Notes under the pieces: model-generated | Database searches by the model: none | Told to the model about the DNA's origin: nothing | What the model saw: the letters and a program-made list of their open reading frames with translations, nothing else | Shown: positions 19,643 through 54,224 of the stretch, in pieces | Numbering within the stretch: position 1 is the stretch's first letter | Layout: the number at the start of each line of letters is the position of its first letter | Program-made: the position numbers and the translations under genes | Source: Lingula anatina | Taxonomy: Eukaryota; Animalia; Brachiopoda | Assembly (NCBI GenBank): GCA_051362555.1 | Contig: CM120641.1 | Coordinates: 992,001-1,056,000 of the forward strand | DNA: 64,000 nt | Direction of reading: 5' to 3'

Positions 19643-21944
19643 TATGTACAGACACAGATGTGTCTGTACATATTGCCATCACCTGCGTCTGTCGTCGCCG
19701 ATGCCGATGCCGATGCCGATGCCGATGCCGTCGCCGGCGCCGTGCACTTTTCTTGTAAACACGATAAGTGGAAGGCAGTTTCACTTTTTGGCTTAATATT
19801 TACAGAGCTGATGAATATTCATAAAACGCAGGTCAAGTTCGAAAATCAGCATGATCGGGCCATTTTAAGGGAAGTTATGCTGTTTTTTCACTTTTTTCAG
19901 CATATATGCAACCCTGTAAACACATTTTAAGGAAAACCGTTAGGCCTGTTGTCATGAAACTCACAGTAGTGGTCAATCTTACTAAAATGGAGGTTGAGTT
20001 CAAAAATCAGCATAATCGGGGCATTATTTTAGAAGTTATGCTGTTTTTTCACATTTCCTCAGATTCAACTCTTAGGCATGTTAACAGTCTCATTATTGAA
20101 CTAATAAGATATGTAAAAGTGTTTGCTTGACATTTCCTGCATCTTTACAACATTGTTAGTTGATTATGTAAAAATGATGGTAAACTTGTTATCGTGTATT
20201 GTGTAATAAAGTGTCAAAAATGGAAATAAACTCATATCATTGCAGTTTGTCAGATTTAATCATTCACTATGTTCAGAATCTCAGAATGGAGGAAATTAGA
20301 CATTTAACACTATTCTATTGATATTTCCCCCATCTCATCAATTTTCTTAGTTGATCATATAAAAATTGCAGTAAACTGTTTATTTTGTTTTATGTTAAAA
20401 AAAGTGTTAAAAATGGAAATAAACCCATGTCAGAACAGTGCTGTCTTGTTTCACATTTCCTCAGATTCAATTCTTAGGCATGTTAACAGTCTCATTATTT
20501 AACTAATAAGACATGTTTAAGTGTTTGGTTGACATTTCCTGTATCTTTACAACATTATTAGTTGATTATGTAAAACTGATGGTAAACTTGTTATCATGTA
20601 TTGTGTAATAAAGTTTCAAAAATGGAAATAAACTCATATCATTGCAGTTTGTCAGATGCAATCATTCACTATTTTTAGAATCTCAGAATGGAGGAAATTG
20701 GACATTTAACACTGTTGTATTTATATTTTTCCCATCTCATCAATTTTCTTAGTTGATCATATAAAGATGGCAATAACCTGTTAATTTTGTTTTATGTTTA
20801 AAAAATTGTTAAAAATGGAAAAAAAACACATTTCAGAACAGTGCTGTCTTGTTTACATTTTGGCATTTTCAAGTTGTGACTTTGAAGTTCCATATGGGCC
20901 TGAAGACCTTTGCTAGTCACATTTTCTGAATATCCATGATACTAATATTTTATTATTAAAATTGATGGTCATTATGCTGTTAAACATAATGTAATATTGC
21001 ATCAAAATTTGAAAAAAAAACTATTTTGGGCACTGCTCCCATGATGACCATTTAAGAAAAACAATGTCACTTACTGTTCTCAAACAGTACAGTAAATATG
21101 TACAGATGTGTCTGTACATATTGCCATCACCTGTATCTGCCGTCGCCGCCGTCACTGTCGCCGGCGCTGGCGCCGTGCACTTTCATTGTAAACATGATAA
21201 GTGGAAGGCAGTTTTACTTTTTGGCTGTATGTTTACAGAGCTGATGAATATTCATAAAACGCAGGTCAAGTTTGAAAATCAGCATGATCGGGCCATTATT
21301 GTAGAAGTTATGCTGTTTTTTCACTTTTCAGCATATATGCAACCCTGTAAACACATTTTAAGGAAAACCGTTAGGCCTGTTGTCATGAAACTCACAGGAG
21401 TAATCAGTCTTATGAAAACGCAGGTCAAGTTCGAAAATCAGCATGATCGGGCAACTGTTTTAGTAGTTATGCTGTTTTTTCATTTTTCAGCATATATGCA
21501 ACACTGTAAACACAATATAAGAAAAACAGATGGGCCAATTGTCATGAAACTCACAGGAGTGGTCATTCCTGCTAAAACGCAGGTTGAGTTCAAAAATCAG
21601 CTTAATCGGGCCATTATTTCAAAGAAATGCCGTTTTTTCACATTTCCCCAGATTCATTTCTTAGGCATGTTAACAGTTTCATTATTTAATTAATAAGATA
21701 TGTAAAAGTGTTTGTTTGGCATTTCCTGCATCTTTACAACATTATTAGTTGATTATGTAAAAATGATGGTAAACTTGTTATCGTGTATTGTGTAATAAAG
21801 TTTTAAAAATGGAAATAAACTCATATCATTGCAGTTTGTCAAATTCAATCATTAAAATTTTGAATCAGAATTGACAGTAGCCTATTTTGTGCATAGTTAT
21901 TTCCTGTTTTTTGTCTGTACATTTGACAGCTTTGCTGCCTTGTT
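19643..21944 (-). mobile_element. Second Helentron/HINE-like element (different family), reverse orientation, with internal duplications
   Basis: 13-bp stem hairpin TATGTACAGACAC-agat-GTGTCTGTACATA (19643-19672), then a (GCCGAT)n microsatellite and ~130-bp internal repeats. Far end has TGTCTGTACAT (21912-21922), a small hairpin and CTTGTT (AACAAG on minus). Block ~19655-20270 is repeated at ~21100-21850, and ~20050-20450 is repeated at ~20450-20850. Confidence 0.75.
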
Positions 21945-37879: not shown

Positions 37880-38600
37880 ATCTGCTAATCTCCAATTTGA
37901 ATAATAACAGATAAAATGGCACCTCTTGCTGTATTCAAACTGTACCATGCCAAACCGTCTGAACTGTCTTGTCAGAAATTCAATCACTTCTTCCATGTGG
38001 TGAATATGAATCAGTTTCCCTCTTATTATTTTTACTGCTCTATTTAATCCAGTGTTTAATGAATACATTATACTGTTTCCTTGCCTCTCTTCTCCAATTC
38101 TCCAAGAAGGCATGAGTATGTGGTTAATCAGAGGCCAAGTCTAGTCTAAATTTCTGGGTAAATGCGAGGGGCGGTCATGTTTGTGCCGTAATGCTGTGTG
38201 CTTATCCTTAGGCATTTGTTCTTGACAGATGTCGGTAATTAACTGCATGAAAGGCTCCAATACAACTGGCCCTGCTCGGTCGACTCCAGTCAGCTCAGCA
38301 CTAATGATGTCATAGAATTGATTGTTGGCTTTGTTTTGCCCTGTGGGCTCAGTTTCCCCCATGGAAATTAACATTTGACAAATACCCTGTGCAGTTTAAT
38401 TCTAACCAGTTTGTAGACAGTTTGAAAGCACAGTCACCGTTTTCAGAGTCCCAAACTGCTGAACAATCCCCCCGATAGTGTGCCTCTGTCACTAAATTCT
38501 GCTCTGCTCCTACGTCTAGGTTCAGACGTAGGTACCTTGTACTTAGTGTGAGAAGGCAACTCCTTTGAGTGCCCAGCCTCCACCTCCATTCTGACATCTG
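37880..38600 (-). pseudogene. Decayed DIRS1-like (tyrosine-recombinase retrotransposon) fragment: RNase H end, MT-like end, YR N-terminal SAM-like region
   Basis: Across frameshifts: NLVTEAHYRG...DSE...STNWLELN (cf. WLTAAHIPG..N..ADSESR...EW.L), FMQLITD, and LMPSWR...RKQYNVFIKHW...EEVIEFLT...LNTARGAI (cf. IMASWR..T.KQY...W...VIEFLT...LNTARSAIS). Confidence 0.6.
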
Positions 38601-38613
38601 ACCCTTGAGATTC

Positions 38614-39109
38614 TTAATTCTCAGTAGTCATGTCAGATGTACCAGCTGACTCATCAGTTTTTGTAATTCTTTGAGGCGTCACTCCTGACAACAATGCCTC
38701 CTCCTCATCAGAATCAATCTCCATTTCCTCGCCCATAATCACCCTTTGGTGAGTTATGGTAGGATCCTCTTTGAGCCTAATGTCCTTTGACATTTCCAGG
38801 CCTGCTGATGCAGTACTAGGCCCTTGTTTAGCAGGTAATGGAATGTGAATAACATTTTCACATATCCACTTATGCCGCTCAAAACCAAATTCTCTCAGGT
38901 CTCGAGCCACCTGCCTTTTCCAGTTGTTATTTTTCTTGCCTTTAGCTAATTCCAACTGACCCTTGAGGATAGCCTTTGCTTCCTCAAAGCATGTCACGGG
39001 GGCACATGGCTAATCTTTCTGCTAACTTTTTAGCAGAGGCAAGTCGTCCCTGGCGGTTGTCCTCTTTAAAACATTCCACCAGTCTTCTCCAATCTTCTGT
39101 TCTCGGCAT
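38614..39109 (-). pseudogene. N-terminal remnant of ORF3 from an older, related Gypsy family (TatD part deleted)
   Basis: MPRTEDWRRLV...LAERLAMCP/TCFEEAKAILKGQLELAK...FERHKWICENVIHIP...KDIRLKEDPTITHQRVIMGEEMEID aligns with the young ORF3 MDSRKWKDLV...LVDRVAMAPKDCLGQA...FRPHAWICDNVAQVP...RDIRLGTDPTIVQHTSYVGQSMEVD. One frameshift near 39000. Confidence 0.8.
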
Positions 39110-39590
39110 CTGTACAAAAACATAAGAGATTAAGAAAATAATTCACTTAAGTTAATTTAACTGTAAGCAAATCAATTCCTCTAAATCAGTACTTTTACTA
39201 TAATGCACATGATGGTAAAATTACCTGCTTTTCTTCTTCTTTCCCAGGCGTCATTATTTTATCATAAACAAAAGCCCTTCCTAATTCATAGTACTGGCAA
39301 GTGAGGACTGTGAAGTGCTGGCTAGTGGTTCTTCTAAACAGGACATGTCATTTTGAGAGGCTTCTCCTGTCTCCAATCCATCTAGTAACTAAATAAGAAA
39401 TATATCTGATATGAGTTTTCGAAAGCTACAATGACAACTATATCAAAATAAACAACTCCCCTTTTGCTGTTGTGAATTAAAATTGATGAGCGGTCAGAAA
39501 TTGCACGGTTTTCATTTTTCGTTACTCTTATCTACGTAACTGAAATAAAATATCATGAGTTAATACGGTGTTGGGAGGCAAAATATAATG

Positions 39591-39809
39591 TATAGCACCG
39601 GGGCTATGTATAAGCGGGTCTAAATAAAGGAAAAGGGCTTACCTTAACTTGATGGCTTGCCGATTCCGTGATTTCTTGATTTTACTACTTCTCTCTCAAT
39701 TGGCACTGCAGAGCGCCTTAGGCGCCATGCTCTAACTTGTCACACTCTATAACACTGCGCATGCGCCGTGACACGCTTCCGGGTCATATAATGACCCCTC
39801 GGCACTACA
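39591..39809 (-). repeat. 3' LTR of the Gypsy element
   Basis: Direct repeat of 49299-49517; reads TGTAGTGCC...GGTGCTATA on minus; preceded on minus by the polypurine tract GGGGGAGAG (39810-39818). Confidence 0.95.
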
Positions 39810-40020
39810 CTCTCCCCCGTTTTACCTTGAAGGACCGTGCCTTCTCGGCCGTATCAGTGCCGAATCACAAAAAAGCCCCACTTTCCACCGTGGGAAAGGG
39901 GATTACCCTCCGTTCCCCGTGGGACTGGGGGGGGATGGGTGCTTGCAGCAGTGATGGGCGTCCCATCAAAGCTACTCGTCCTGGTCAAGTCGCACCCGGC
40001 CTGACCACACCCTTGCCCTT

Positions 40021-42423
40021 CTAACCATCTGGGCCCCTTTTCTCCAGGTATAAAAGCCGTGCGTTATCCCTGGTCTGGCGCAACACTTCTCGCCATCGCT
40101 CTCCCCGGATCTCCGCCACTAACTTGGCCACGTGACCAAGCAGAGCTGGGGTAGAACACTTGTTCCGTTGAATGTTGAAATACGGAGCATCCGTCTCCAG
40201 GAGTAGTCTTCTCAGGGGCAAGGTTCGTAACATGTCATGCGCCTTGGCATTGACAGGCCCCTCGTGTTCTGCGAAGCGTCCCGTGACGCCGAAGTAGGTG
40301 TTCGGATAATAGCGAACAAAAGCCCGCACCATATCCGGGGAACCTAAAAAGCAATGACAATGGATTAGCTGTCGAGTCCCCACGCCCACAGCTCTCAGTT
40401 TGTCCAGTATGATATGCCAGACCGCGTCGTCGGCATCTGTGCTGGTGCTTAAGCCTCTCCCGTGGAGGACTAGCACATGGGTTGGCTCCAGGAAATGAAG
40501 AGCAGCCTCCAGGTTGGTCAGTTGATCCTCCCACCTGGACGGCATCACTGACATGTCCAGCCCGACCTCCCCCAGTGCCGTGACTGAGGGGTGGTTGATT
40601 ATGGACTGGAACTTAGCCCACTCCGTTGATGTGCAATAATGCCTAGGGTGCATTCCCACAGAAATGACCCCGCCTTCGTTTTTAATGGCCTCCATCTCAC
40701 CCTCCGTGGGGTAAGTATTCGGATCACAATAGATCGCCGTGAATCCATCGATCACCACAGGTTCCACCGTGGGAACGGCTGCTTGGATCTCTCTCAAACC
40801 AGCTCTGGCGTCCAGGGATAGTTTGGTCCGAGTCCGGTCAATATGGCAGTGGGAATCGTACCCCACTGGCGACTGAGGCAGCATCTGCAACTCCTCAGGC
40901 GATGGGCTAAACAACGAGCGGAATTCCTCCTGCCCCTGGATCAAGGTCATCAGATCCAGCAACACCTCCCATCTCAACAACTGGGGTATACGGCTGGACG
41001 TTCCAAGCCGCATATGCGCTCTAAGGGCATCTATGCCCACTTGATCAACAGGGCCACCCCTGTCCTCTACACTGGCAGCATCCAGTAAAATCTCTAGGGT
41101 CAGGTGAGACCCCACAATTCTCTTCTTTAGGTAATGAAGAGCTGCCACTCTCCGCTCCGTGATCCCTGGTGCGGAGCTCAATTCCGGATGAAAGATAAGA
41201 GGCAGATGCTCCTTGAAAGCATGCTCCTCCGACATTGGCTGGCCGCAGCCTGCCAAACAATACTTAGGCCGTGCCTCACAAGGGTGTTCTACTCTTTTCC
41301 ACGAGGACTGCCCCTGATGTGTACTCCCTTGTCTCCTATGAGGAGAACAAGAACTGTCACTTCCATATCGGCGCCGTGGCCTTTTGGCGGGAGGGTGAGT
41401 GGGCCTACCCCCTCTCTTGGAATATCCTCTTGCTGCGGGAGGAGCCATCAGTGCAGCTCGATAACTCCCCGGAGCCTCACTAGGGTACCGTGACCCTCCT
41501 GCTCGCTCCTGTGATCTCGGGTTCCGTGAACCCGTTAGTGGGTGTGGCGGGGGCCTCTTTGGTCTAGCACCCCTTTGTGCACCCCCTCCTCTAACAGGAC
41601 TACGCCCACGAGATTCCTTCCGCCTTGACTCCTTGACTTGCCACTGGAATTCTGGGCCTTCTGATCCTGACCCATGGTCAGTGGACTCAGAGACCCGTGC
41701 CCCTGATCCTTCCGTCACTGCCACAGAGTCTCCTGACTCTGACTCCATACGCTCCGGAGGCCGTGCTCTGGATTCAAGGCTTTCCAAGCCTGCCTCAACA
41801 CACATAGGCTCCGTGACCCTTGACTCTGACTCACCACCGGTTCCCAATTCTCTTGGATCGGTCACCGGCGGCACTTCTTGGGGAACCCGTGATTCCCCCG
41901 GTTGCTCCAACTGCGCTTCAGAGCTCCGTGGCTCTGTCTGCTCACTCCACAGCCCAGAGTCCTTAAACTCTGCCTGTGTCTCTAAGGGCGGAGTATCCAA
42001 CACCCGCTCTTCAGCCGGGCTGTCACCCCCTGCCTGCCCCTCCAAGACGGCCTCGTCAACCTCCATCGATTGACCCACATACGACGTATGCTGCACAATA
42101 GTTGGGTCCGTGCCCAATCTTATATCACGAGCGGGCCCCGTGGGCTCAGCTCGCACAGCCTGCCTGCCAGATGGAACCTGTGCCACGTTGTCACAGATCC
42201 ATGCGTGGGGGCGGAATTGCTTTTTCCTCCACTTCTCCATAGCTTTGTGCCGTGCCAAAGCTACTTGGCGCAATACTAAGCTGCTGGCTTGCCCCAGGCA
42301 GTCCTTAGGCGCCATCGCCACTCGATCTACCAACTCATCCATCTTCTGAATTGGCCATATCCGTCCCTCTGCCGTGCAGATTTCTATGTCCACCACCAAG
42401 TCCTTCCACTTTCTGCTGTCCAT
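40021..42423 (-). CDS. Gypsy ORF3 (env position), 800 aa: novel N-terminal domain, disordered acidic then basic linker, CxxxC..H..H motif, C-terminal TatD-family nuclease (~40040-40865)
   Basis: TatD motifs in order: YDSHCHID, SVGMHP, ALGEVGLD, VLVLHGR, IHCHCFLG, YFGVTG, LLLETDAPY, and a terminal TRDNARLLY helix. The ORF is uninterrupted and lies inside the LTRs. Confidence 0.9.
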   Translation of the reverse strand: MDSRKWKDLVVDIEICTAEGRIWPIQKMDELVDRVAMAPKDCLGQASSLVLRQVALARHKAMEKWRKKQFRPHAWICDNVAQVPSGRQAVRAEPTGPARDIRLGTDPTIVQHTSYVGQSMEVDEAVLEGQAGGDSPAEERVLDTPPLETQAEFKDSGLWSEQTEPRSSEAQLEQPGESRVPQEVPPVTDPRELGTGGESESRVTEPMCVEAGLESLESRARPPERMESESGDSVAVTEGSGARVSESTDHGSGSEGPEFQWQVKESRRKESRGRSPVRGGGAQRGARPKRPPPHPLTGSRNPRSQERAGGSRYPSEAPGSYRAALMAPPAARGYSKRGGRPTHPPAKRPRRRYGSDSSCSPHRRQGSTHQGQSSWKRVEHPCEARPKYCLAGCGQPMSEEHAFKEHLPLIFHPELSSAPGITERRVAALHYLKKRIVGSHLTLEILLDAASVEDRGGPVDQVGIDALRAHMRLGTSSRIPQLLRWEVLLDLMTLIQGQEEFRSLFSPSPEELQMLPQSPVGYDSHCHIDRTRTKLSLDARAGLREIQAAVPTVEPVVIDGFTAIYCDPNTYPTEGEMEAIKNEGGVISVGMHPRHYCTSTEWAKFQSIINHPSVTALGEVGLDMSVMPSRWEDQLTNLEAALHFLEPTHVLVLHGRGLSTSTDADDAVWHIILDKLRAVGVGTRQLIHCHCFLGSPDMVRAFVRYYPNTYFGVTGRFAEHEGPVNAKAHDMLRTLPLRRLLLETDAPYFNIQRNKCSTPALLGHVAKLVAEIRGERWREVLRQTRDNARLLYLEKRGPDG

Positions 42424-42470
42424 CTAGAAATAGAATGAAACAATTAAGTGCACATTCCATCTCATAGCTC

Positions 42471-43763
42471 TTAAGCTCTGCGTATACAGTCTTGACATTT
42501 ATATTTATTAATGCTTAAGGCATCCGTGGCCGTCACATTAACACATGACCCGTGATACCACTCCCCGCAGTAATCACATTGCAGCATAAATCTACCCTGC
42601 CAGGGTTGACGGCAACTGCAATATACTCGGTCATCGCCCCTCGCCGTGGAGTCGGGCACTGGATTCTTCCTCCAATGTTGTATCCACTGGGGCACCTCCT
42701 TGTCTCGACAAGGCTTCAACCTGTCGTGGTTGGTCACAAAGACTGCATTCCGCACCTTAACGCGGAACAGGTTTGAACTGAGCCGTGCTACAATTAAACC
42801 TGGCCCCCTCCATGGTGGGCACAATTTCTTACACTTCCCCTTTGCTGCCACAGTATCCAGCACATACACTGTATCTCCCACAGCATACGGTCGTTCAAGT
42901 ATCCTTAAGTCATAGTCCCTCTTCATTCTTTTAGAGGCTACTCGCAGTTTACCCCGAGCCGTCTCGTGGGCTTCCATCAGATCAGCTGCCAACCGTGCGG
43001 CATAGCTATCTGAATCTTCAAAATTGATGCTCCTCCGTGGGAACATTAAACCTGCAGGTGCGTTCGCCTCCCTCCCCAACATTAACCTGTTGGGAGTGTA
43101 CCCCGTCATCCGGTTTACAGATGCCCTAAGTGCCCCGGCAATCTGTTGTAGACGCAAGTCCCAGCCGTTCGGGGCCTTCTCCGTGAAGCAGCGCACCGCA
43201 TCCATGAGAGTGCGGTTATAGCGCTCTACCTGGCCATTGCTGGCCGGCCGGTACGGCGTAGTACGGGCCTTGTGAATCTCGAGCACAGAACACACTTCAG
43301 TGAACAGCTTAGATTCGAAATTCCTCCCCTGGTCCGTGAAAATCTCCAAAGGGACTCCAAACCTGGAGAAAAATTGATCTATCGCGGCCCGTGCCGTCTC
43401 CTCCGCTGACTGTGATGGTAAGGGGATACATTCGACCCATTTCGTAAATTGGTCGACCATCATGAGTATGTACTCATTTCCCCTGGCAGTCTTCGGCAAC
43501 GGTCCCAAGAAATCTAAGTGCACCCTCTCCATAGGCGCACCTGCCTGGAATTGTGTCAGAGGCACTTTTCCCTGCCTTGCAGATTTCTTATTCTGGTTAC
43601 ACCGGGTGCACCCAGAAACGAAGTTTTCTGTCGCTCTTCCCATCCCGTACCAATAGAATCCCTCCTTGAGCCGATCCTTGGTTCTTTTCGCTCCCTGATG
43701 GCCTGATGATGGCAGACAATGATGTAGTCGGATGGCTTCCTGTTGCCATGCCATGGGTAGCAC
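42471..43763 (-). CDS. Gypsy integrase with C-terminal PHD finger (42486-42626)
   Basis: HHCC (HH..PSSGH...CTRC), DDE core (HLDFLGPLP, TDQGRNFES, NGQVERYNR), GPY/F-like WRGP, then VYCSCRQPWQGRFMLQCDYCGEWYHGSCVNV...YKCQDC (C4HC3). Confidence 0.93.
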   Translation of the reverse strand: MLPMAWQQEAIRLHHCLPSSGHQGAKRTKDRLKEGFYWYGMGRATENFVSGCTRCNQNKKSARQGKVPLTQFQAGAPMERVHLDFLGPLPKTARGNEYILMMVDQFTKWVECIPLPSQSAEETARAAIDQFFSRFGVPLEIFTDQGRNFESKLFTEVCSVLEIHKARTTPYRPASNGQVERYNRTLMDAVRCFTEKAPNGWDLRLQQIAGALRASVNRMTGYTPNRLMLGREANAPAGLMFPRRSINFEDSDSYAARLAADLMEAHETARGKLRVASKRMKRDYDLRILERPYAVGDTVYVLDTVAAKGKCKKLCPPWRGPGLIVARLSSNLFRVKVRNAVFVTNHDRLKPCRDKEVPQWIQHWRKNPVPDSTARGDDRVYCSCRQPWQGRFMLQCDYCGEWYHGSCVNVTATDALSINKYKCQDCIRRA

Positions 43764-46700
43764 TAACTTTTTATCCTCAGTCTCTGATCACACCTGTATA
43801 GCAGACCCTCTATGATGATAAACAAATCCCTATCCAGCCAATAGGATTTTAAGGCCTGGCTGCCTAGGAATAAGGTAGACTGATCAGGTAGCTTACCACT
43901 TTCCAAGCTCTCCCTGATCACACTCAGGTCTGCATCCGCCTCCTGTGCTGCATGGACCTCCTCCACCGAATAACCCCAACTGGTGAGTCGTGAAGACCCG
44001 TGGTCCTTCACCTTGACCTCACCCTCTGCTTTTCCCTCTTGAAGTGTGGATTCCTTATCACACTCCACCGTGGGAGGTTCTTCCTCAGGAGTTATCGGCG
44101 CGTCGCCTGTATCTTTATGCCCGTGGCCACGTGCACGTCTCCGAGTAGTAACTGGAGCTACTCGAGGTGTTTCCCCTTGACCCCAGGGAATCTGATCTAA
44201 TACCGTCTGTAAGACCTGGAACTCTAGCGTATCCGTGATACACTCTTCCTCTCTGCATACCTCACCGAACACCGTGTGTTCAGAGTACACATTCACTGGA
44301 TCCACCGTTACTGAGCGAACCGTCTTGCCATCGTTGTTTTGCTGACCTTCTGAAATTTCAACGCTGTGGATATCCTCTGTATCCCGGTACGCACCCTGTG
44401 CTAGCGGAATAACATCATCCACTTCCTCCTCGAAACCCACCCAATTCTCGTGGGCCCGCCTGCAATACCCGCATCCACCACATGGTAGAGCATCCAGCCG
44501 CCCCCTGGTGCCTGCTTTGCACTGCCCCATGTGAGTCGCTCTAGACAGCGTGTCCGCATTCCCATGTTTGCGCCCGGCGCGATGAGACAACACCATGTCG
44601 TACTGTGAGAGCTCTTCCAGCCATCTCGCCAGCTGACCCTGCGGCTCCCGAAATTTCATCAGCCATCTTAAACTCGAATGGTCAGTCCTAATAGTAAATG
44701 GTTTCCCCAATAAATAGTACCTGAACTGTCGGGTGAATCGTACCACCGCCAAGAGTTCCTTACGTGTCGTACAATACCTCCTCTGTTCCCTGGTTAATCC
44801 ATAGCTACCGTAAGCTATCACTTTCTCCTGGCCATCTTGTACTTAAATAAGCTCTGCTCCTATAGCAAAGTCACTTGCGTCTGTATCTAAAATGAACTCT
44901 CCGTCCACCGTGGGAACAGAAAGAACTGGGGGAGATGTTAATGCCCCCTTTAATGCCATAAAAGCCCGTGCTTGTTCCTCACCCCACTCGTAACTCTTTC
45001 CAGTTACAGTGTACAGGGGTGCAGCTATCTCACTGAAGTTTTTAATAAAGGCTTGATGGTAATTAGCCAAGCCCATGAATTTCTCCACATCTTTGGCACA
45101 TGTTGGTGTAGGCCAGTCCGTGACAGCCTTAACGTCATGATCAGACATGGAGAGCGTCTCCCCTGTCACTATCCGTCCGAGAAATTCAATCTCCTTCTTA
45201 AAGAAGGTGCATTTCTTTGGCTTAAGCTTCAGCTCGTAGCTGCGGAACCTCTCAAGGGCGTCCCTTAGGTTCTGTAAATGCGCATCAAAAGTAGTACCGA
45301 GTACCACTATGTCATCTAGAAATTCCAGCACAGTTTTCCAGGACATTCCACGGAAAACTAAGTTCATTATCCGAGCATAGGTCGCGGGCGCCCCGCACAG
45401 ACCAAATGCCATAAATGCTCATAGAGACCATATTTCGTAATGAAAGCTGTCTTTTTCCGATCCTCTTCACGTATGGGCACCTGCCAATACGCAGAGTTGG
45501 CGTCTAACTTAGAAAAATACACATTACCCGACAAGGTATCCAAACAGTCATCGACTAAGGGTAATGGGAACACGTCCTTAGTGGTCATGGCATTCAACGC
45601 ACGGTAATCGATACACCACCTCACAGAGCCATCTTTCTTCCGTATTAACACTGGCGCCGGCGCCCAGTCGGAAGTTGACTCCTGAATCACTCCTGCCTTC
45701 AACATCTTCTGTAAATGGGCTTCCTCCTCGCCCACAAAGCACCGTGGCGTTCGCCGCATTCTCTGCTTTATCGGAAGAGCAGTACCGGTGTCTATCGTGA
45801 AGTTTCCTAAATCAAATTCATCTCTAGCAAACACATCTTGATACTCCGTGAGTAATCTCGCTAGCTGAACCTTCTGCTGATCGTCTAATTCTGCACTGGA
45901 TTCCTCATACACCTGCTTTAAATGAGAAGGCACGCGTCGCGCCTCATCATTGACCTCGTCATCGGTCCGTGCCGTGACTGACTGCACTGCTGGTGGTATG
46001 CAGTGAATGACCTCCGCCCCAGGTGACCTGCCACCCTCCCCTTGGTTACTAGGGAAACATAACGGATCCCCCAGGGGCTCCCCAGACGTTATAATACCCG
46101 CATAGGTAAAAGCCCGCCCCACTTCAGTACCCTTACGCAGTAGTCTGTGCCTCTCACTAGGATTTATGAGGACCATGATGGGTTCAGACCCCCCATTACG
46201 AATAACCCTGGGAGCAAGGAACTTACCAGTACCCCCCACCTTTGGCTCTATTACATAACTAGGAAGATCTACATCTAACTTACAGGCCACCCTGGCAGCG
46301 GAGTAAGGGGGTATCACCTGGCGCCGTGCGACAGTGACCCTGGCCATCTGAGGTGTTCCCTTATCTGAATTAGCGTCTAATGTCAGATACATGCCGTCAA
46401 ACTGCATCACTCCTCTGCCGACATCCACTACTGCCTGCCCTAAGTCCTTCATAATGTCCATTCCCAGCAGCATATCTTGTTCAATGGGGGCTACGTATAG
46501 CCTCACAGCATACCACTTATGTCCAATCTTTAACTTAACAGGGCCTGCTGTAAACCCCTGCATCACCATTTCCCGTCCAGCGGCTAAAAGCTGTACTGAA
46601 TTCAACCTCTTAGGTTGTTTCTTAAGACTGTTGTAAATGCGGTCTGAAAGTATCGTAACTTGAGCCGCAGTGTCCACTACAGCATTCACAGCAATGTTTC

Positions 46701-47045
46701 CCACTTTCATCTGAAGTGAATAATCCGCCACTGTTCCGATTTGTCGCACCACTACCATGGGAGCAGGAACCGTGCCCTCTATTCCCCCTGTGGTAGCCTC
46801 GTCTGCCCTGGTTGTTAATTCAACGTGACCCATATCACGGTTGGGCTTGTCTTGGACTAGTGCTGCCCCCTGTCGAGTTATACTGATTGCACACCCTGTA
46901 CCTCCGTGGGTACAGTGCACTTAATATCCGAAACTGCTGACTCCTCTGGTACCCTGAGTTTCTTAATGGGCTTATTTATAACATCTGGGCCTATGAATCG
47001 CTGGATCGAGGGTTGGCCTCCGGCCTCGACCCGGTGGAGTTTCCC
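43763..47045 (-). pseudogene. Gypsy pol (protease, RT, RNase H), interrupted by frameshifts and one in-frame stop
   Basis: Protease VVDTAAQVTI; RT RWCIDYRALN, LDANSAYWQ, KTAF, FLDD; RNase H DTDASDFAIGA, ELLAVV, TDHSSL, NADTLSR. Breaks at ~46880-46920, ~45410, TAA at 44843-44845, and ~43770. Confidence 0.92.
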
Positions 47046-49036
47046 ACCTGCGGGCACTCCCTTGCAATGTGCCCTTGCCGATTGCACTTATAACACAGCA
47101 CCGAGTTTCCAGTGCTGCCCCGTCCCCAGCTCCGCTGGTTTCCGGGTGCGGCTCCGTGGCCGTAACCGGTAGATGACCTCCTACTCAGCTCCTGGCGGAC
47201 ATCTTTCAACGCCTTCTCCATTTCCTTGATGGTATCCCTCATCTGTTCCAGCTCTGGAATGTTACCCTCTGCTGCAGGCGTCACTTGGTTGGCTCGCTTG
47301 GCTCCCGGGCGCAATTTCTTTCCCGCATTCTCCATAGTCACTCGCATTTCCCTATGCATCTTAGCCAGCTGCATCGCTTCCCTTAAGGTGGCTGGCTGGC
47401 GCATATAAATTGATTGACCTGCCTCTGAATCAATCATGCCCGCGCAGAACCGACTTACAGCCTCCGACTCCACGAATGTCCTAGGTAACTGAGCATACGC
47501 TTCAGAAGTCAGACGTAGCACCCTGACTCCCCATTCATCCACCGTTTCCGTCTCGTCTTGAGTAGCGTTATGTAGCTGCGACCGAACCGTAGCCGGTGTG
47601 TCCGTTTCTCCGTAACAGGTCTCTAATTCCTCCATGAGACCTTCATATGAGGGCTTACCTAGCCTGCGTGCGACGTTCACACAACAGTCTAGGGCCTTAC
47701 CCTTCAGGCAGAGGCATAGTGCATCCAGGGACATGTCGCGATCCCAATCCTCCCTCTCTGCCTGTCGTAAGAAAAGCAACTTAAAAGCAGCCCAACTTCC
47801 ATGTCCGTTAAAAGTTAAGCTCTTAGGAGGATTGACCTTCCTCCTCTCCATTGAGTCTTGTTCTGCCCCTAGCTCCGTGAGCCGTGCAGTCCTCCTCGAG
47901 GCCGCGCCCCGTTTCAATATAGGAGAGCCCTGGAATACAGGGTGTTCGTCCTGGCTACCTCCCTCCACTGGGGTGCTATGATACACAGAGTGCCCTGAAT
48001 TCGATCCATTTCCCACCACTGGAGATCCGTGATCCCCAGGGTGTACGACTGGAGAGCTGTGACTTCCAGGGTGTTGTACTGAGAATCCGTGATTCCCAGG
48101 GTACATGGCTGGAGAGCTGTGATTTCCAGGGTGCGGTACTGAGAATCCGTGATCCCCAGGGTGCATGGCTGGAGAGCTGTTATTTCCAGGGTGTAGTACT
48201 GAGAATCCGTGATTCCCAGGGTGCATGACTGGGGGACTGACACCAGGTGCCATTGGAGGGCTATGATTCCCAGGGTAACCCGAATAGCTGCCACCACCCC
48301 CCGGGCCAACAGCATACCCCTCCCCCCGGACATCCCCGGACATAGGAGTTTCCCTTACAACGCCCCCCCTTGGACTAGGTGTAAACAATTCAGGGGTGTA
48401 AACAGCCTTATCCTGTCTCCCGGGACCTAATGCTACCCCACCCCCCATGGGGCTAGGTGTATATGGAACATGAGGACCCCCCTGCTGAACCCCACTATTT
48501 ACATTCTTAACTACATTTTTACCTGGGCTCCGTTTAACAAGTTGAGGCAAATTCGCTCCCTCCAATCCACTGTCCTCGAATAACCTCTTCGGCACTGTGG
48601 CCTCCGAGTTACGATGTGCACTCATTTGACCCTCACAGCCTCCTAGCTGCCGCGTGCCACCTCCGTGAAGCGCACTTTCGCTATTGAAAGCGTTGCTCTC
48701 CTCCTGAGCAGAAAATCCGAAGAACAGTCCTGAAAGAAACCGGAAAAATCTCCATAGCCAGTTTCCAGATCCTCCTTTCTCCTGTCCTCTCCTTTCCGTG
48801 AGTGAAACAGCCGTGCTGCCCACACCCAAGCGCTGATTCGGCTCAAAGTCCACCATATCCAGCGTACGAGGAGCCAGTCTGCAGCACAAAGCACTTTCCA
48901 CTTGCCGCACATCTAAATTTCCAAATTGTTCCCTCAGTTCGGCTATTTTAAACACTTGGTCTTCCGTGAGACCTGGAGTCCGCATTAACTCATTTACGTT
49001 TGCATAGTTTATGAAATTCCTAGCGTGCGTCGCCAT
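46991..49036 (-). CDS. Gypsy Gag: HhH-like N-terminus, decapeptide repeats, capsid-like region, CCHC zinc knuckle
   Basis: Open frame (first ATG at 49036, MATHARN). FNGHGSWAAFKLLF capsid-like start, and CYKCNRQGHIAREC knuckle. Confidence 0.9.
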   Translation of the reverse strand: MATHARNFINYANVNELMRTPGLTEDQVFKIAELREQFGNLDVRQVESALCCRLAPRTLDMVDFEPNQRLGVGSTAVSLTERRGQEKGGSGNWLWRFFRFLSGLFFGFSAQEESNAFNSESALHGGGTRQLGGCEGQMSAHRNSEATVPKRLFEDSGLEGANLPQLVKRSPGKNVVKNVNSGVQQGGPHVPYTPSPMGGGVALGPGRQDKAVYTPELFTPSPRGGVVRETPMSGDVRGEGYAVGPGGGGSYSGYPGNHSPPMAPGVSPPVMHPGNHGFSVLHPGNNSSPAMHPGDHGFSVPHPGNHSSPAMYPGNHGFSVQHPGSHSSPVVHPGDHGSPVVGNGSNSGHSVYHSTPVEGGSQDEHPVFQGSPILKRGAASRRTARLTELGAEQDSMERRKVNPPKSLTFNGHGSWAAFKLLFLRQAEREDWDRDMSLDALCLCLKGKALDCCVNVARRLGKPSYEGLMEELETCYGETDTPATVRSQLHNATQDETETVDEWGVRVLRLTSEAYAQLPRTFVESEAVSRFCAGMIDSEAGQSIYMRQPATLREAMQLAKMHREMRVTMENAGKKLRPGAKRANQVTPAAEGNIPELEQMRDTIKEMEKALKDVRQELSRRSSTGYGHGAAPGNQRSWGRGSTGNSVLCYKCNRQGHIARECPQVGNSTGSRPEANPRSSDS
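48011..48230 (-). repeat. 30-bp coding minisatellite in gag (7 x PG[ND]H..S..H decapeptide, alternating A/B = 60-bp period)
   Basis: CCAGGGT recurs every 30 bp from 48036 to 48216. Confidence 0.9.
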
Positions 49037-49280
49037 TTTGCTTTCTCCTTGACGCACGTGTCGCCGAAAATCCAAGAATACTCCTTAAAACTTGAAAGAA
49101 TTAACTCCAAAAACACACTAAAAACACTCACCAGTCCGTGCTGGGGTTTCCTCTTACAAATTGAATCACAACAATAACAAAAATGGTAGCGTACGTGCCC
49201 GAGTACAGAGTTCAGCTCCGTGGCTGAAAACTCTTCTGCAGAAAAATTCGTAATTTATTCTGCAAAATACGGCACAAATC

Positions 49281-49298
49281 CGACCCAGCTGCCACCAA
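49281..49298 (-). other. Primer-binding site, probably tRNA-Leu
   Basis: TGGTGGCAGC lies 1 nt inside the 5' LTR and is complementary to the ...GCTGCCA-CCA 3' end of tRNA-Leu(AAG/TAG). Confidence 0.7.
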
Positions 49299-49517
49299 TA
49301 TAGCACCAGGGCTATGTATAAGCGGGTCTAAATAAAGGAAAAGGGCTTACCTTAACTTGATGGCTTGCCGATTCCGTGATTTCTTGATTTTACTACTTCT
49401 CTCTCAATTGGCACTGCAGAGCGCCTTACGCGCCATGCTCTAACTTGTCACACTCTATAACACTGCGCATGCGCCGTGACACGCTTCCGGGTCATATAAT
49501 GACCCCTCGGCACTACA
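49299..49517 (-). repeat. 5' LTR of the Gypsy element
   Basis: Direct repeat of 39591-39809; followed on minus by the PBS. Confidence 0.95.
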
Positions 49518-50230
49518 AATGAAATGAATAAGTCATTACTTCCCCTGGATACTTCAAGCTTCTGAACGACCTTCACTCGATGCTTTACCGTCTTCTCGAA
49601 CTGTTCACTTTCTCCGGTGTGTGGTCGTTTCATTGTCGCATGAATGGTAGGGACAGAATCTACCTTCAACGTCCTTTTTGTCTTTAAACCCAGCGTGTTC
49701 ATAAGCGGGGATGCGAAGCAATCTTCCTCGAAGTGTGCCCCACAAAGAACGGCCTGAGACGATGGTGAGGGTGCATGGAAATTCTTCCTTTTTGTTTGCA
49801 CAAATTTCACCCATTGGTGACGCAAATTAGGTTTTTGTGGAAACCTATGCAAGCTGTGCCCAGTATGCTTCGAGTTTGAGCAGTTTTGGGCAACACACTT
49901 TTTAACCATGATACAATACGGATGCTTTTACAGAGAACAACATCAATCCAAACGCGGCACCTGACTGACATAGAAAGCGGGTCACGTGTATTATATAGGT
50001 CAACCCCAGATCTACCAAATACGTGGCAACCTGTGACAGGCTATTTTGGTCACAGTGACTTGTTTTTATGTAGGTCAGCAAATTCGCTCTAAAAGCGCGC
50101 ATTTTTTAATCGATTTATTCACTAAAACGATGTCAGAAAATTTTGAAAAAAATATTTTTGTGCAGGATTAGTGTTCCTACATCAGGTAATAACAATATTT
50201 TGGGGTGTAAAACGGGCCAATACCTGCTCT
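49518..50230 (-). mobile_element. 5' part of a Kolobok-like DNA transposon with a THAP-domain exon (49909-~49544); probably continues at ~39590-39300 beyond the Gypsy insertion
   Basis: MVKKCVAQNCSN...HRFP...RHQWVKFV...LCGAHFEEDCF...LKVDSVPTI is a THAP zinc finger. The terminus reads TTAA|AGAGCAGG (50234-50223), the TTAA + RR signature of Kolobok. The other end was not found. Confidence 0.7.
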
Positions 50231-50256
50231 TTAATAGGCGATGACGGTAACTAGGG

Positions 50257-52200
50257 TTAATTAGTACCATGATGGGCTCTGTACCTGCACAGAATTTTAT
50301 GATGAGTGTCTATTACAGCTTGACCCCTCTGTTTTAAAAGATCAAATCCGAGTAGCATATCCTGTTCTATGGGTGCCACATACACCTGTTCTAGGTACCA
50401 TTTACTTCCTATTTTCAGTTTCACTGGCCCTGCAGTGAATCCCTCCATGGTCATGTTACGTCCCGCGCATAACATTCTCACATCATTAATTTTTCTTGGA
50501 GGATTCTTCATGCTTCTATATATTCGATCTGACAGTATGGTTACATCTGCTGCAGTATCCACTACAGCTTTAATCTTCTTATCTCCCACTTGCAAATTGA
50601 GCAAAGTGGCGAACCAATATTACATAACACTACCACAGACACGTCATTTTTGACTCCTTTATTTTTCTGCATCATTAACTTCTCATCTCCTTCCATTACT
50701 TTTAATGGAGAGGAATAAATATGTGCTGAGTTCCTCTCTTTAAGAGGCTTAAAACAGGGCTTTTCCCTGACGTCTGGCTCTATTGGATGCAGGGTTGAGG
50801 GTTGGCCTGTGTCCCCGGCCCTCTGCCATTTCCCTGCAGATTAGACGGACAATCACGGGTAAAATGGCCTCCAGCTCCGCAGGAAAATAATTTCCATTCC
50901 TTCTTCCTCTGGGAGTACTATGCCCTCTACCTGCAGAGTTATAGGACGTATTGGGGGTATAATTCCTTTGAATTTCGCGACCCCCACTATTAGTTGGTCT
51001 TTGAGTCATTTGTTGTTTTATCTCTTTAAGTGCCTTTTGCACCTTTTCTAGTTCTTTAAAATTCACCATATCAGAGATGTTACAAGATGACTGTGGCTCG
51101 TCACTGATACTAGGTTGCTGTGTTACACTATTAACCCTTTTGGTCATAGTGCGTCCCTTCTTTGTTTCCATGGTAACCTTTAGTTCCCTGTGCATTTTAG
51201 CTAATTGCATAGCTTCATGCAGGGTTGATGGACTTTGCGTATAAATGTCTTGTCCTGCTTCTGGATCCAAAAATGACATGGCTCTACCAACTGGACAGGA
51301 ACCATTGTTTGCACTACTTACTTTACCATAACAACTTTACATATCTTCTTCACACCCTTTTCCTTCACATAGAATATCCATGGAGGATAGGTCAGTTTCT
51401 TATCTTCTTCAATATCTTGATCTCGCAACAACTTACTCGCTTCTGCTAAATACAGGTTTTGGTTTTCAGTTGTGAAATTACGTGGCACCTTGCCAGAGAA
51501 TGTTGGAGTTTTAAACCTAAACTGCAGTGTTTGGACTAACTGCGGATATTTTATCCCACTCCTTGCCACCTGGAATCTGAAAAAAGTAACACAAATGACA
51601 TGGGTAAACCAGGGTAAGCTTGTGACGCGAGCCTTAGAACGCGCACACCCCATTCATCCACGGATTCCGTTTCACTCTGTAGTGAGTTATGAAGTCGAAT
51701 GCACAGTTACTGGTGTATCTGTTTCCCCATAAGACATCTCCAGTTATTCTCACAGGCCCTTATAAGTTAATATACCTTCACGTTTTGTGACATTCACACA
51801 ACACTCTTGTGCTTTTCCTATGAGACATAAACATAGTCCATCTAAACACATACTAGAATCCCAGCCTTCTCTTTTTGCATGACTCAAAAACACTAATTTA
51901 AAAGCTGCCCAGCTTGTTTTACCATTAAATGTTTAATTTTTTGGTGGGCATACTTTACGCCCGGCTGCTGGAATATTTGGACCTGAGGGTTCATCTATTT
52001 GCATAGGGGATTCCTGTGAATGAAAATATTCCTCCCCTCCAATTGGATTCATGGGTAAAGCAGGTGTATTGGCAATATTTGGGCCTAGATTTGAGTTTGG
52101 GTCAGGAAAACTAAGAAAATTAGGGTCAATTTGTTTCCTTTGAACCTCTGGACTAGCTGGAAAACTAGGAAAATTAGGGTTATTTATTTATGCCAACTGT
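50257..52200 (-). pseudogene. Decayed gag + protease of an older Gypsy related to the intact element
   Basis: KVCPPKN*TFNGKTSWAAFKLVFLSHAKREGWD...YGETDTP, DPEAGQDIYTQSPSTLHEAMQLAKMHRELKVTME and LQVGDKKIKAVVDTAADVTILSDRIY...AGPVKLKIG..WY...YVAPIEQDMLLG are all colinear with the young element. Many stops. Confidence 0.9.
51330..51575 (-). pseudogene. Short DIRS-like RT N-terminal fragment embedded within the old gag
   Basis: LQFRFKTPTFSG...ENQNLYLAEASKLLRDQDIE...WIFYVKEKG resembles DIRS RT (GY.L.F...P......E...LL.KGAIE....S.IF.V.KK.G). It interrupts gag colinearity. Confidence 0.45.
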
Positions 52201-52289: not shown

Positions 52290-52800
52290 AGTTACCTGCT
52301 CTAAAATGTCCTCTTTGTCCTTGTTAAGTCTCTGAGGTACATATCTATCCTGCACATGTTTCAAAATGAACAGCATGTCTTCAGGCAAGTTCTCATTCTT
52401 GCACAAAAGGGAACGATGCTGCATCTTCAGAGGTTCTGTGCGTTCAAACAAAATTGACTTCCAAGCTACAGGTGACCTTTGCACATCGGTCGGAAGAGAA
52501 TGTTTAGTTCTTGGGTTTTCTATTATCTTTCTTCCAACAACACGAAGCATGTTCTTTGTTTCTTCTTTACTCTATAGTGCCTGGTCAACCTTTGTCTTAC
52601 ATTTTATGCACACCGTATGTGAGGGGCAATTCTCCTCAGTCAATTCATATTTAAACAATTTAGAGAGTCCGTCGATAAATACCTTACTTTTCGCCTGGCC
52701 TTGTTCTGATTTACTGAATAACTTTAAATAGTGATGGGAATAAACTGATTGGGGTTGACTGCAAAGTAAACACTCCTTCCCTATTACCTTCTTTGTCAGT
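52290..52800 (-). pseudogene. DNA-transposon fragments: ZAD/zf-AD-like CxxC...CxxC and a DUF6589 (Academ-like) transposase piece
   Basis: ECLLCSQ...LF...HTVCIKCKTKV; LLCKNENLPEDMLFILKHVQDRYVP (cf. L.KNENK.EDM.DIL.H.H.YVP). Confidence 0.45.
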
Positions 52801-52939
52801 GTAGTGGTTACTTCATGTCGTATTCGTCTAAAAACTGTAGACTGGTAATCCACTGGTACTTCATCTGCTGCCTGTGAGGTAACCAGGGCTAATCTGTATG
52901 CTAGGCAAGATGCCTTTTCATATCCCATATTAAACCTAG

Positions 52940-53095
52940 GCCAAGTCACATTTTGTGCTGCTTCCCATTGACATTTGTCTTCAGCTATCATGAACCCTAA
53001 ACGTTCTAAATCTGACTTTATCAAATGACTTAACTGAGTTGCTTTTTCAAAATTCTCAGCTCCTGCTATAGCATCATCAAGATACATTGATTGGA
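52940..53095 (-). pseudogene. YR-retrotransposon (DIRS/Ngaro) RT catalytic fragment
   Basis: MYLDDAIAGAENFEKA...IKSDLERLGFMIAEDKCQWEAAQNVTW. Confidence 0.65.
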
Positions 53096-53129
53096 GTTTG
53101 TTGGGGGGTACAGAGAGAAAGGTTATTGG

Positions 53130-54224
53130 GTAATGGAACAATGTGGCTGGGGTTCACCTGTTGCAGCTGAGAGAGCGTGACCAGGTTGGGACGACAGAGA
53201 GCTAAACATATTAGCAAAAATTTGTGCCATCCTCAACTGGTGCTCCCTATCCTCCCTCCTCATCTGCATTTCAATATCTCTTTGTCTCTTTTCTCTGTCC
53301 TCCTCTTCTCTGAGCCTCTTTGTTTCAAATTCAAGGAATTGTCGGTCCTGTTGTTTAAATGTGTCTTTCAGTGGCTGAAGCATTCCCTCATACTCCTTCC
53401 TTTTCTTGTTTGCAGCTGCAAAAATATAAGACAAGGTTTTTAGAAACATTATTAAAAAATTATTACCTTATTATCCAAGGTTTTATTTTAGTGTTGAAAT
53501 AGTGTCTAAAAATGTACAATTTAAAGTATTATTACCCCTTCAAACTGTTGCTGACATGTGGACAAATTATACGAAGGACACTTAAGTTGGATTGTATTAC
53601 TTCGTTTTGATCCTAGCATGTAGCAGCACGCGTCTTTAAATAAATACCTGCATCAAGTTGGTGGTAAAATCTTTATTCCCATTCGTTTCCGACGAAATAT
53701 TATTCCCGTGGAACTAAAATAAACATAAAACATACATGTAGTCCTACGAACACATACGCTGACATGGAAACTTCTTAAACTAACAATAATTCTGAAATTG
53801 AGTGATAAACAACTTGTAAATCGAGACAATAACTTCAAAGTTTTGATTTCTAATAAAAATAATAATATAATGAAAGATTAAATCTTGATTTACCTCGTTT
53901 GGGGCCTAAACCTTCTAAGAGCGTCGGAGGCGTGCCGCCGTCAAGTAAAAGCTAAGTGACACTACGTGGCAGCACTATCGGATCCAATATACAAGAGAAG
54001 CACATGCGTAGTTACTGTTACATAGCATGAAATATCACTTGAAGCAAAACAATTTCACCCCCTTCTCAATATTGGGAGAATAAAAGGCTGCTTACTATTC
54101 TTGACCGTTTTTTTCTCTTTAGGCTTTTTATCTTCATCTCTTGGTGTTTCCTCATCAGACAGACTCTCCTGACTCTGCCGGCTTTCCTGGCTCTCACTGT
54201 CAATTTCTTCATCACTTTCCTTAG
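53130..54224 (-). pseudogene. Two in-phase exons (54224-54096, 53415-~53130) of an acidic/coiled-coil C-terminus, resembling Harbinger Myb/SANT accessory proteins
   Basis: tag|..KESDEEIDSESQESRQ...KPKEKKTVKN|gt joins (phase 1) to cag|TANKKRKEYEGML...FLEFETKRLREEEDREKRQRDIEMQMRREDREHQLRMAQIF. Confidence 0.45.

What the first reader, a model, noticed from the sequence alone, without database searches (positions are those of the whole stretch)
42486..42626. Integrase ends in a PHF8/BPTF-type PHD finger: candidate H3K4me3-targeted retrotransposon
Seen: VYCSCRQPWQGRFMLQCDYCGEWYHGSCVNVTATDALSINKYKCQDC is fused in frame to the integrase C-terminus, where chromoviruses carry a chromodomain. Known: this pattern closely follows the PHF2/PHF8/BPTF/DIDO PHD fingers (VYCLCRLPY...FMIECD.C.DWFHGSC), whose Y, Y, M/Y, W residues form the H3K4me3 aromatic cage. 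The equivalents here (Y, W, M, W) are retained. Inference: integration is steered to active promoter chromatin, the opposite of chromodomain-guided heterochromatin targeting.
Basis: partly seen in the sequence, partly recalled or inferred. Interest (0 to 1): 0.86.

Follow-up and report, generated by a model that had tools for sequence, protein, structure and literature searches.

The report
Retrotransposon integrase with promoter-mark PHD finger
A recently inserted jumping gene in a marine invertebrate has an insertion enzyme that ends in a well-kept PHD finger of the type that reads the histone mark of active promoters, a design shared by an old lineage of such elements, and the finger likely steers where new copies land, although neither binding nor steering has been shown.

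Summary
Confirmed. 42486-42626 (-) encodes a complete C4HC3 PHD finger (Pfam E 7.5e-8), in one frame with the integrase of a young Ty3/gypsy element (39591-49517; LTRs 217/219 identical; 4-bp target duplication; empty site in 4 of 4 DNA runs). The host is most likely Lingula anatina. The finger's closest solved relatives are H3K4me3 readers (PHF8, KDM7A, PHF2, CFP1, DIDO, BPTF). Among 90 complete relatives the cage Trp is kept in 90, Met in 89 and Tyr/Phe in 85. PHD-bearing integrases form one clade (100/99) across molluscs, echinoderms, a crayfish and this brachiopod. All 17 of 17 sufficiently long loci also carry a TatD ORF3 with conserved splice-like signals. Promoter targeting is untested. 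The one visible insertion lies 392 bp after a THAP start codon, but inside a nest of mobile elements, and this copy's pol is broken. Nine literature searches found no description of this clade; PHD fingers in other mobile elements are known. This scan noted the same clade earlier in other genomes. New variant of a known kind.

The parts
49299..49517 (-). 5' LTR, 219 bp, TG...TA ends
   Evidence: 217/219 identical to the 3' LTR
49518..49521 (-). 4-bp target-site duplication (CATT), 5' copy
   Evidence: same 4 bases at 39587-39590; empty-site joint 39588-49521 in 4 of 4 DNA runs and 2 RNA reads of run X17
49346..49350 (-). splice-donor-like site (AAG|GTAAG) in the LTR, 52 nt before its end; inferred donor for an ORF3 message
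   Evidence: sequence; a GTRAG within 90 nt of the primer site in 6 of 7 related loci where both PPT and PBS were found, against 66 of 614 background bins; splicing not observed
49288..49297 (-). primer-binding site (TGGTGGCAGC), one base after the LTR
   Evidence: sequence; assignment to a tRNA-Leu end is recalled, not tested
46991..49036 (-). gag: weak N-terminal helix-hairpin-helix match, 30-bp repeat region, Retrotrans_gag, CCHC knuckle
   Evidence: Pfam; repeat D4; intact frame
43763..46920 (-). pol, protease-RT-RNase H part; broken into three frames in this copy (breaks near 45.4 kb, 44.84 kb and 43.78 kb)
   Evidence: ORF list and Pfam
42627..43787 (-). integrase: H2C2 zinc domain, D92-D152-E188 core, beta-barrel C-terminal domain, short flexible linker
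   Evidence: Pfam; alignment; AlphaFold model, linker 382-386 pLDDT <50; Foldseek best hits are foamy virus and Ty3 integrases
42486..42626 (-). C4HC3 PHD finger at the integrase C-terminus with cage residues Y389, W396, M401, W410
   Evidence: pLDDT 80-93
42424..42445 (-). splice-acceptor-like site (pyrimidine tract + TAG) directly before the ORF3 ATG
   Evidence: 15 of 20 ORF3 starts have one, against 187 of 2306 other ATGs; splicing not observed
40021..42423 (-). ORF3, 800 aa: conserved N-terminal domain, low-complexity middle, class II (HxH) TatD nuclease domain with all five metal-site motifs
   Evidence: Pfam E 5e-34; motifs; 100% (rounded) over residues 380-800 to Lingula anatina LOC106170426
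39810..39823 (-). polypurine tract
   Evidence: sequence; near-identical tracts in related loci
39591..39809 (-). 3' LTR
39587..39590 (-). target-site duplication, 3' copy
49518..50227 (-). target context: THAP-domain frame (ATG 49909) of an approximately 1-kb unit that continues at 39289-39590
   Evidence: Pfam THAP E 1e-15; joint 39288-50228 in 4 of 4 DNA runs marks the unit's ends

Best explanation
The finger is the fixed tail of the integrase in an old marine-invertebrate Ty3/gypsy lineage, and it likely binds H3K4me2/3 nucleosomes and so would tether the integration complex to promoter-type chromatin. Shown: the in-frame fusion, its single origin, strong conservation of the zinc ligands and cage, and the constant pairing with a TatD ORF3. 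Inferred steps: (1) pol processing releases an integrase that keeps the finger on a short flexible linker. (2) The cage holds trimethyl-Lys4; about 85% likely, by homology. (3) This biases insertion towards open 5' regions, of host genes or of active mobile elements. (4) The finger was captured once from a PHF2/PHF8/CFP1/DIDO/BPTF-class host reader and took the place of a short basic tail, which may have been a non-selective nucleosome anchor. ORF3 is likely made from a spliced message (LTR donor, acceptor after the integrase stop) and is an older, separate acquisition.
For: Fusion and domain calls. Closest solved structures are H3K4me3 readers. Cage maps onto PHF2 Y7/Y14/M20/W29 (PMC8166343 passages), whereas fingers specific for unmethylated H3K4 lack the cage (PMC3241642 passages). 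In 90 complete fingers among 120 hits: W 90, M 89, Y/F 85, D/E after the third Cys 81; in 55 among 70 long hits: W 55, M 55, Y/F 54. Mean identity is 51% in the finger, 23% in the linker and 70% in the core. The 20 PHD rows form one branch, 100/99, in a 68-row integrase-core tree. Sister tails lack any reader domain. An H3K4me3 PHD tethered to an integration complex can redirect integration to start sites (review PMC8149907, passage). The one site seen is 392 bp downstream of a THAP ATG, and THAP-region reads exist at low depth, 2 of them crossing the empty site.
Against: No binding or insertion-site data. The one site lies in an element-within-element nest, and its CpG o/e of 0.84 is matched by 26% of 99 window bins. 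The second cage aromatic varies: W or Y in 44 of 90, Asp in 34. The PHF2 Arg2-binding Glu is Gln in 75 of 90. H3K4me3-type fingers also bind non-histone mimics (PMC8166343), and the outcome of PHD binding depends on the host complex (PMC3241642). The only PHD-bearing gypsy with mapped new insertions, Chlamydomonas Gypsy-7a_cRei, was enriched in intergenic DNA, with selection not excluded (bioRxiv 10.1101/2022.06.16.496473, section 17). The homolog searches were seeded with the PHD-bearing protein and so favour PHD-bearing hits. Many loci come from a single assembly.
Confidence: 0.55

Rival explanations
1. The finger reads H3K4me3 but does not choose the site. It acts as a licence or anchor instead: it stimulates strand transfer, holds the complex on chromatin, or helps the new copy be expressed. 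Site choice would rest on DNA accessibility or another host factor.
For: All the conservation evidence fits equally well. The single site is in a mobile-element nest. The RAG2 PHD, which both tethers and activates a transposase-derived recombinase, is a precedent (recalled, no call).
Against: Reader domains at this position in chromoviruses, and MBDs in CopiaMBD elements, are linked to site choice (PMC6673714 passages). A tethered H3K4me3 PHD alone retargets integration.
Confidence: 0.25
2. The finger binds something other than H3K4me3: a methylated non-histone tail, another methyl-lysine, or H3 regardless of methylation. Targeting, if any, would then not be to promoters.
For: PHF2's finger binds a methylated VRK1 tail more tightly than H3K4me3. 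The second aromatic is variable and the Arg2 Glu is replaced by Gln.
Against: Trp and Met are near-invariant and the first aromatic is kept. Acidic residues next to the third Cys and before the Trp are kept (81 and 77 of 90). The top-ranked PDB matches are fingers of the H3K4me3-reading class.
Confidence: 0.15
3. The finger is a captured passenger with only a structural role, or none.
For: This copy's pol is broken.
Against: It is kept across families whose integrases are only 45-69% identical and across several phyla. Surface cage residues, not only zinc ligands, are conserved. It is intact here.
Confidence: 0.05

Closest known systems
Chromoviruses (Ty3/gypsy with an integrase C-terminal chromodomain; as summarised in PMC6673714, passages)
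   Same: A histone-reader domain fused after the integrase C-terminal barrel, proposed to direct integration.
   Different: PHD instead of chromodomain; predicted to read an active mark; no chromodomain in sister lineages; carries a TatD ORF3. Placement relative to the chromovirus clade was not tested.
Chlamydomonas Gypsy-7a_cRei (bioRxiv 10.1101/2022.06.16.496473, section 17 read) and REM1 (cited; its structure recalled)
   Same: A gypsy element encoding a PHD finger, with targeted insertion proposed.
   Different: The legend lists the PHD between RNase H and integrase (figure not seen); the host is a green alga; cage class not described in the section read; no TatD; relatedness to this clade not tested.
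Ginger1-9_HM DNA transposon (PMC2836005, passages)
   Same: A PHD finger C-terminal to a gypsy-type integrase in an animal.
   Different: A cut-and-paste DNA transposon, one family of the table, and the PHD comes with a Ulp1 protease domain.
CopiaMBD elements of arthropods (PMC6673714, passages)
   Same: A host epigenetic reader captured by an LTR element and linked to insertion bias.
   Different: Copia; reads methylated DNA; binding was shown there, not here.
Juno/Vesta LTR elements of bdelloid rotifers (PMC5408684, passages)
   Same: A nuclease in the ORF3 (env) position; ORF3s are typically spliced messages.
   Different: DEDDy exonuclease rather than TatD; no reader domain after the GPY/F module.
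PHF2/PHF8/KDM7A, CFP1/Spp1, DIDO/PPS and BPTF PHD fingers (PDB)
   Same: C4HC3 spacing and Y-Y/W-M-W cage; about half the residues identical.
   Different: Fused to an integrase; Gln at PHF2's Glu22; the donor gene is not resolved, since scores for these families are within a few bits.

Membership tests
Ty3/gypsy LTR retrotransposons | Direct LTRs with PBS, PPT and short target duplication | tested here: met
   219-bp LTRs, PBS, PPT, 4-bp duplication, empty site
Ty3/gypsy LTR retrotransposons | gag, then pol in the order protease-RT-RNase H-integrase | tested here: met
   intact in relatives
Ty3/gypsy LTR retrotransposons | H2C2-DDE integrase with C-terminal barrel like Ty3/foamy virus | tested here: met
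Chromoviruses | Chromodomain at the integrase C-terminus | tested here: not met
   Pfam gives PHD, no chromodomain, in this tail; none in 12 of 12 sister tails
Chromoviruses | Placement in the chromovirus branch of the RT/IN tree | not tested
H3K4me3-reading PHD fingers (PHF2/PHF8/BPTF/DIDO/CFP1 class) | C4HC3 zinc ligands | tested here: met
   8 of 8 invariant in 58 sequences
H3K4me3-reading PHD fingers (PHF2/PHF8/BPTF/DIDO/CFP1 class) | Aromatic cage with invariant Trp | tested here: met
   Y389, W396, M401, W410 align to PHF2 Y7, Y14, M20, W29; family counts
H3K4me3-reading PHD fingers (PHF2/PHF8/BPTF/DIDO/CFP1 class) | Acidic pocket for H3 Arg2 | tested here: inconclusive
   PHF2 E22 is Gln here; D405 and E409 are kept in most relatives; their contact with Arg2 is recalled from other fingers
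H3K4me3-reading PHD fingers (PHF2/PHF8/BPTF/DIDO/CFP1 class) | Methyl-dependent binding to the H3 tail | not testable with these tools
   needs a binding assay
env-bearing gypsy elements (errantivirus type) | ORF3 encodes an envelope protein | tested here: not met
   the only Pfam match of ORF3 is TatD
env-bearing gypsy elements (errantivirus type) | ORF3 expressed from a spliced subgenomic RNA | tested here: inconclusive
   conserved donor- and acceptor-like sites; no joint listed at RNA depth mostly below 2
Class II (HxH) TatD nucleases | HxH motif plus Glu, His, His and Asp metal ligands | tested here: met
   all five motifs in the window's ORF3; class definition in PMC10085689, passages; activity untested
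Mollusc MolGy clades (PMC6238403) | Placement by RT/RNase H tree | not tested
   no reference sequences; the main text has 0 mentions of PHD or TatD; supplements not read

The most novel reading that the evidence does not exclude
An ancient animal retrotransposon lineage carries its own promoter-landing kit. An integrase-fused H3K4me3 reader takes it to active start sites without a host adaptor, and a spliced TATDN2-like nuclease clears R-loops or repairs ends there. It would be the first mobile element shown to aim at the active-promoter mark with a self-encoded reader, the mirror image of heterochromatin-seeking chromoviruses.
Probability: 0.2. Interest if true: 0.85.

Novelty: new variant of a known kind. 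Interest (0 to 1): 0.64.

Why it matters
How retroelements choose insertion sites decides how much they harm or rewire genes. Known self-encoded readers (chromodomain, MBD) point to silent chromatin, and known promoter-seeking elements borrow host adaptors. A clade whose integrase carries its own H3K4me3-type reader, with PHD-less sister families in the same genomes as built-in controls, makes the question directly testable from existing assemblies plus one binding assay. If confirmed, it would be a source of promoter-proximal variation in bivalves, snails, sea urchins and brachiopods. It also matters for annotation: these proteins appear in databases under names such as 'COMPASS component SPP1', 'NYNRIN-like' or bacterial 'transposase' in contaminated symbiont bins.

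Tried and rejected
(1) Mapping family insertions: no genome is held for the window. Most related loci are collapsed or end at the LTR, so flanks were too few to count. (2) Expression and splicing: no RNA holder was listed. Four RNA runs gave 302 reads on the 12.6-kb stretch, at depth mostly below 2, with no splice joint listed and inconsistent strand between runs. This is no evidence either way. (3) CpG content of the target as a promoter sign: 0.84 against a window median of 0.53, but 26% of 99 bins are as high; not used as support. (4) Chromodomain-to-PHD swap: rejected. (5) Obligate PHD-TatD coupling: weakened, because two PHD-less sister loci (L015, L109) carry TatD. (6) Identity of the THAP unit: no terminal inverted repeats or target duplication were found; left unnamed. 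(7) IMG/VR gave 10 loci, none with a PHD or TatD. (8) The search of 50%-identity representatives was never run, so the most distant relatives remain unsearched. (9) No complex prediction was sent: no H3 tail was available and methyl-lysine cannot be modelled. (10) PMC5890265 was checked as a possible precedent: 0 mentions of PHD in its main text. In PMC4255032, PHD appears only in the references. (11) The gag helix-hairpin-helix match is below the Pfam cut-off and was found in only 2 other loci; not relied on.

Full report
OBSERVATION. The stated coordinates translate, on the minus strand, to the stated 47-residue peptide. It is residues 388-434 of a 438-codon open frame (42471-43787) that holds the integrase zinc domain, the rve core and the PHD (Pfam E 3e-14, 3e-15 and 7.5e-8), and it ends four residues before the stop. 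An AlphaFold model from a 58-sequence alignment shows the core, a long helix, a beta-barrel (306-359), a short disordered linker (382-386) and a confident terminal finger (pLDDT 80-93). Foldseek ranks foamy virus and Ty3 integrases first.

THE ELEMENT. It spans 39591-49517. The LTRs are 219 bp and 217/219 identical, flanked by a 4-bp duplication, with a primer site and polypurine tract. The empty site appears as a joint in 4 of 4 DNA runs and in 2 RNA reads of run X17, so the insertion is real and recent or polymorphic. gag is intact; pol is split into four frames in this copy. ORF3 (800 aa) is intact and matches Lingula anatina LOC106170426 over residues 380-800. That record has a few substitutions and 8 extra residues, so it is a sister copy or allele, and the host is most likely this brachiopod.

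THE FINGER. The best PDB matches of the single finger are PHF8, KDM7A, PHF2, CFP1, PPS, BPTF and DIDO (E 3e-13 to 1e-10); a 20-sequence profile ranks the same group first. Y389, W396, M401 and W410 align with PHF2 Y7, Y14, M20 and W29, which form its methyl-lysine cage (PMC8166343, passages). A review states that fingers specific for unmethylated H3K4 lack such a cage (PMC3241642, passages). Of the 120 best hits listed (746 found), 97 carry PF00628 and 100 match my profile; 17 of the other 20 end within 50 residues of the barrel, too early to hold a finger. In the 90 complete fingers, W is kept in 90, M in 89 and Y/F in 85. Against a simple reading, the second aromatic is W or Y in only 44 (Asp in 34), and PHF2's Arg2-binding Glu22 is Gln in 75. 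Mean identity is 51% in the finger, 23% in the linker and 70% in the core. Among 70 long hits, 58 carry the PHD and 51 have RT, integrase and PHD in one protein. Named hosts include Mercenaria, Mytilus, Pecten, Haliotis, Nucella, Plakobranchus, Anneissia, Diadema, Lytechinus and Procambarus. These searches were seeded with the PHD-bearing protein and so favour such hits.

THE CLADE. Of 156 loci fetched, 63 scored at least 150 bits to the integrase-core profile, and 21 of these have the finger. Many are contigs inside symbiont bins and are, by inference, host DNA; many come from one assembly, so hosts are not independent. A careful tree of 68 core sequences (L021 and L027 left out as frameshifted; six distant rows added) puts all 20 PHD rows on one branch at 100/99. 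All 17 PHD loci with at least 3 kb downstream have a TatD match (weak in L014, where the contig ends); the other 4 end within 2 kb. Among 42 PHD-less loci only L015 and L109 have TatD (1 of the 12 with at least 3 kb downstream, plus L015), and both fall in the sister group (100/98 with the PHD branch). TatD therefore most likely came first. A quick tree of TatD domains repeats several integrase groupings and keeps named host TATDN2 proteins apart (99), which fits co-inheritance. Sister integrases have no chromodomain (12 of 12 scanned); most long ones end in a disordered stretch and a short Arg-rich motif. That such motifs anchor on nucleosomes, as in herpesvirus LANA, is a recalled lead (LANA's groove binding is mentioned). 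The finger thus replaced a basic tail, not a chromodomain.

ORF3. All five TatD metal-site motifs are present, of the HxH class. Human TATDN2 degrades the RNA of R-loops (PMC10711561, abstract), and TATDN1/3 are abasic-site endonucleases (PMC10085689, passages). A pyrimidine tract and YAG lie within 18 nt before 15 of 20 ORF3 starts (22 elements examined, no start called in 2), against 187 of 2306 other ATGs. A GTRAG lies within 90 nt of the primer site in 6 of 7 loci where both PPT and PBS were found (24 examined), against 66 of 614 background bins; the window's LTR has one as well. These counts are among relatives and not independent. An env-style spliced message is likely, but no joint was seen in thin RNA data.

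THE TARGET SITE. The element sits 392 bp after the ATG of a THAP frame, in a 1-kb unit whose own ends are marked by a second joint (39288-50228). That unit interrupts an older, internally deleted relative (gag 51959-50935, protease 50601-50229, ORF3 start 39060-38743). This fits landing near a transcribed 5' end as well as it fits accumulation in an element nest. The flank's CpG ratio is not exceptional. One site cannot test targeting, and no genome was held.

MECHANISM. Most likely the processed integrase carries the finger on a short tether that binds H3K4me2/3 nucleosomes and biases insertion to promoter-type chromatin (0.55). Binding rests on homology (about 0.85). Targeting rests on analogy with chromoviruses and CopiaMBD (PMC6673714, passages) and on the retargeting of integration to start sites by an engineered ING2 PHD tether (PMC8149907, passage). 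Rivals: binding that licenses or anchors without choosing the site (0.25), another ligand (0.15), a passenger (0.05).

KNOWN AND NEW. It is a Ty3/gypsy element, not a chromovirus by the defining domain, though it probably works like one. PHD fingers are known in Chlamydomonas Gypsy-7a_cRei, where new insertions were 2.6 times enriched in intergenic DNA (bioRxiv 10.1101/2022.06.16.496473, section 17), after the integrase of Ginger1-9_HM (PMC2836005, passages), and in Penelope-like, CR1 and Rehavkus elements (PMC8557442, passages). Nuclease ORF3s are known from rotifer Juno/Vesta (PMC5408684, passages). Nine searches (listings seen) found no paper describing an animal gypsy clade with an integrase-terminal PHD or a TatD ORF3. 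A mollusc survey has no mention of either in its main text (PMC6238403; supplements not read), so the clade may already bear a MolGy name there. Subscription journals and Repbase entries were not searchable. Earlier unchecked notes of this scan describe the same layout in other genomes; they are not counted as support. My note on the splice sites predates those look-ups. Verdict: real, conserved, apparently undescribed in the searchable literature, function inferred; a new variant of a known kind, interest 0.64.

Noticed in passing
window 38000-39288 and 50228-51959 (-): An older relative with gag, protease and ORF3 start but no RT, RNase H or integrase. The protease-to-ORF3 junction is seen in all four DNA runs, and another joint (39210-42475) suggests copies that keep a PHD-like end; possibly a multi-copy non-autonomous family.
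   Followed up: partly
window 39289-39590 and 49518-50227 (-): An approximately 1-kb THAP-domain unit with no detectable terminal repeats or target duplication, inserted in that relative; origin unexplained.
   Followed up: partly
window 48810-49036 (-): gag begins with a weak helix-hairpin-helix (HHH_3) match, also seen in L091 and L099; unusual for a gag.
   Followed up: partly
window 39590-39620: In RNA runs X11 and X13, 45 and 28 reads share only the last 30 bases of the LTR and run on into other DNA: an expressed locus elsewhere that contains a related LTR end.
   Followed up: no
window 39591-39809: The LTR is CpG-rich (o/e 0.95) and holds a palindromic GCGCATGCGC and a CCGGAAG box, resembling housekeeping-promoter motifs (recalled); similar boxes occur in L013 and L092.
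   Followed up: no
window 48018-48239: 30-bp tandem repeat inside gag encoding a Pro/His/Gly-rich decapeptide.
   Followed up: no
window 2143-3045 (-): A 300-codon frame with a paired-box domain (E 3.5e-66); Pax gene exon or transposase-derived.
   Followed up: no
window 16977-18590 and 19650-21930: A 146-bp tandem array of about 10 copies and a cluster of 160-400-bp repeats.
   Followed up: no
L090-L131 (genome contigs): Dozens of intact animal gypsy elements sit in bins labelled as bacterial symbionts, most likely host contamination; they are annotated as bacterial integrases.
   Followed up: partly
window 52572-53153 (-): A degenerate RT-like fragment followed by a weak zf-AD match, upstream of the element nest.
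   Followed up: no
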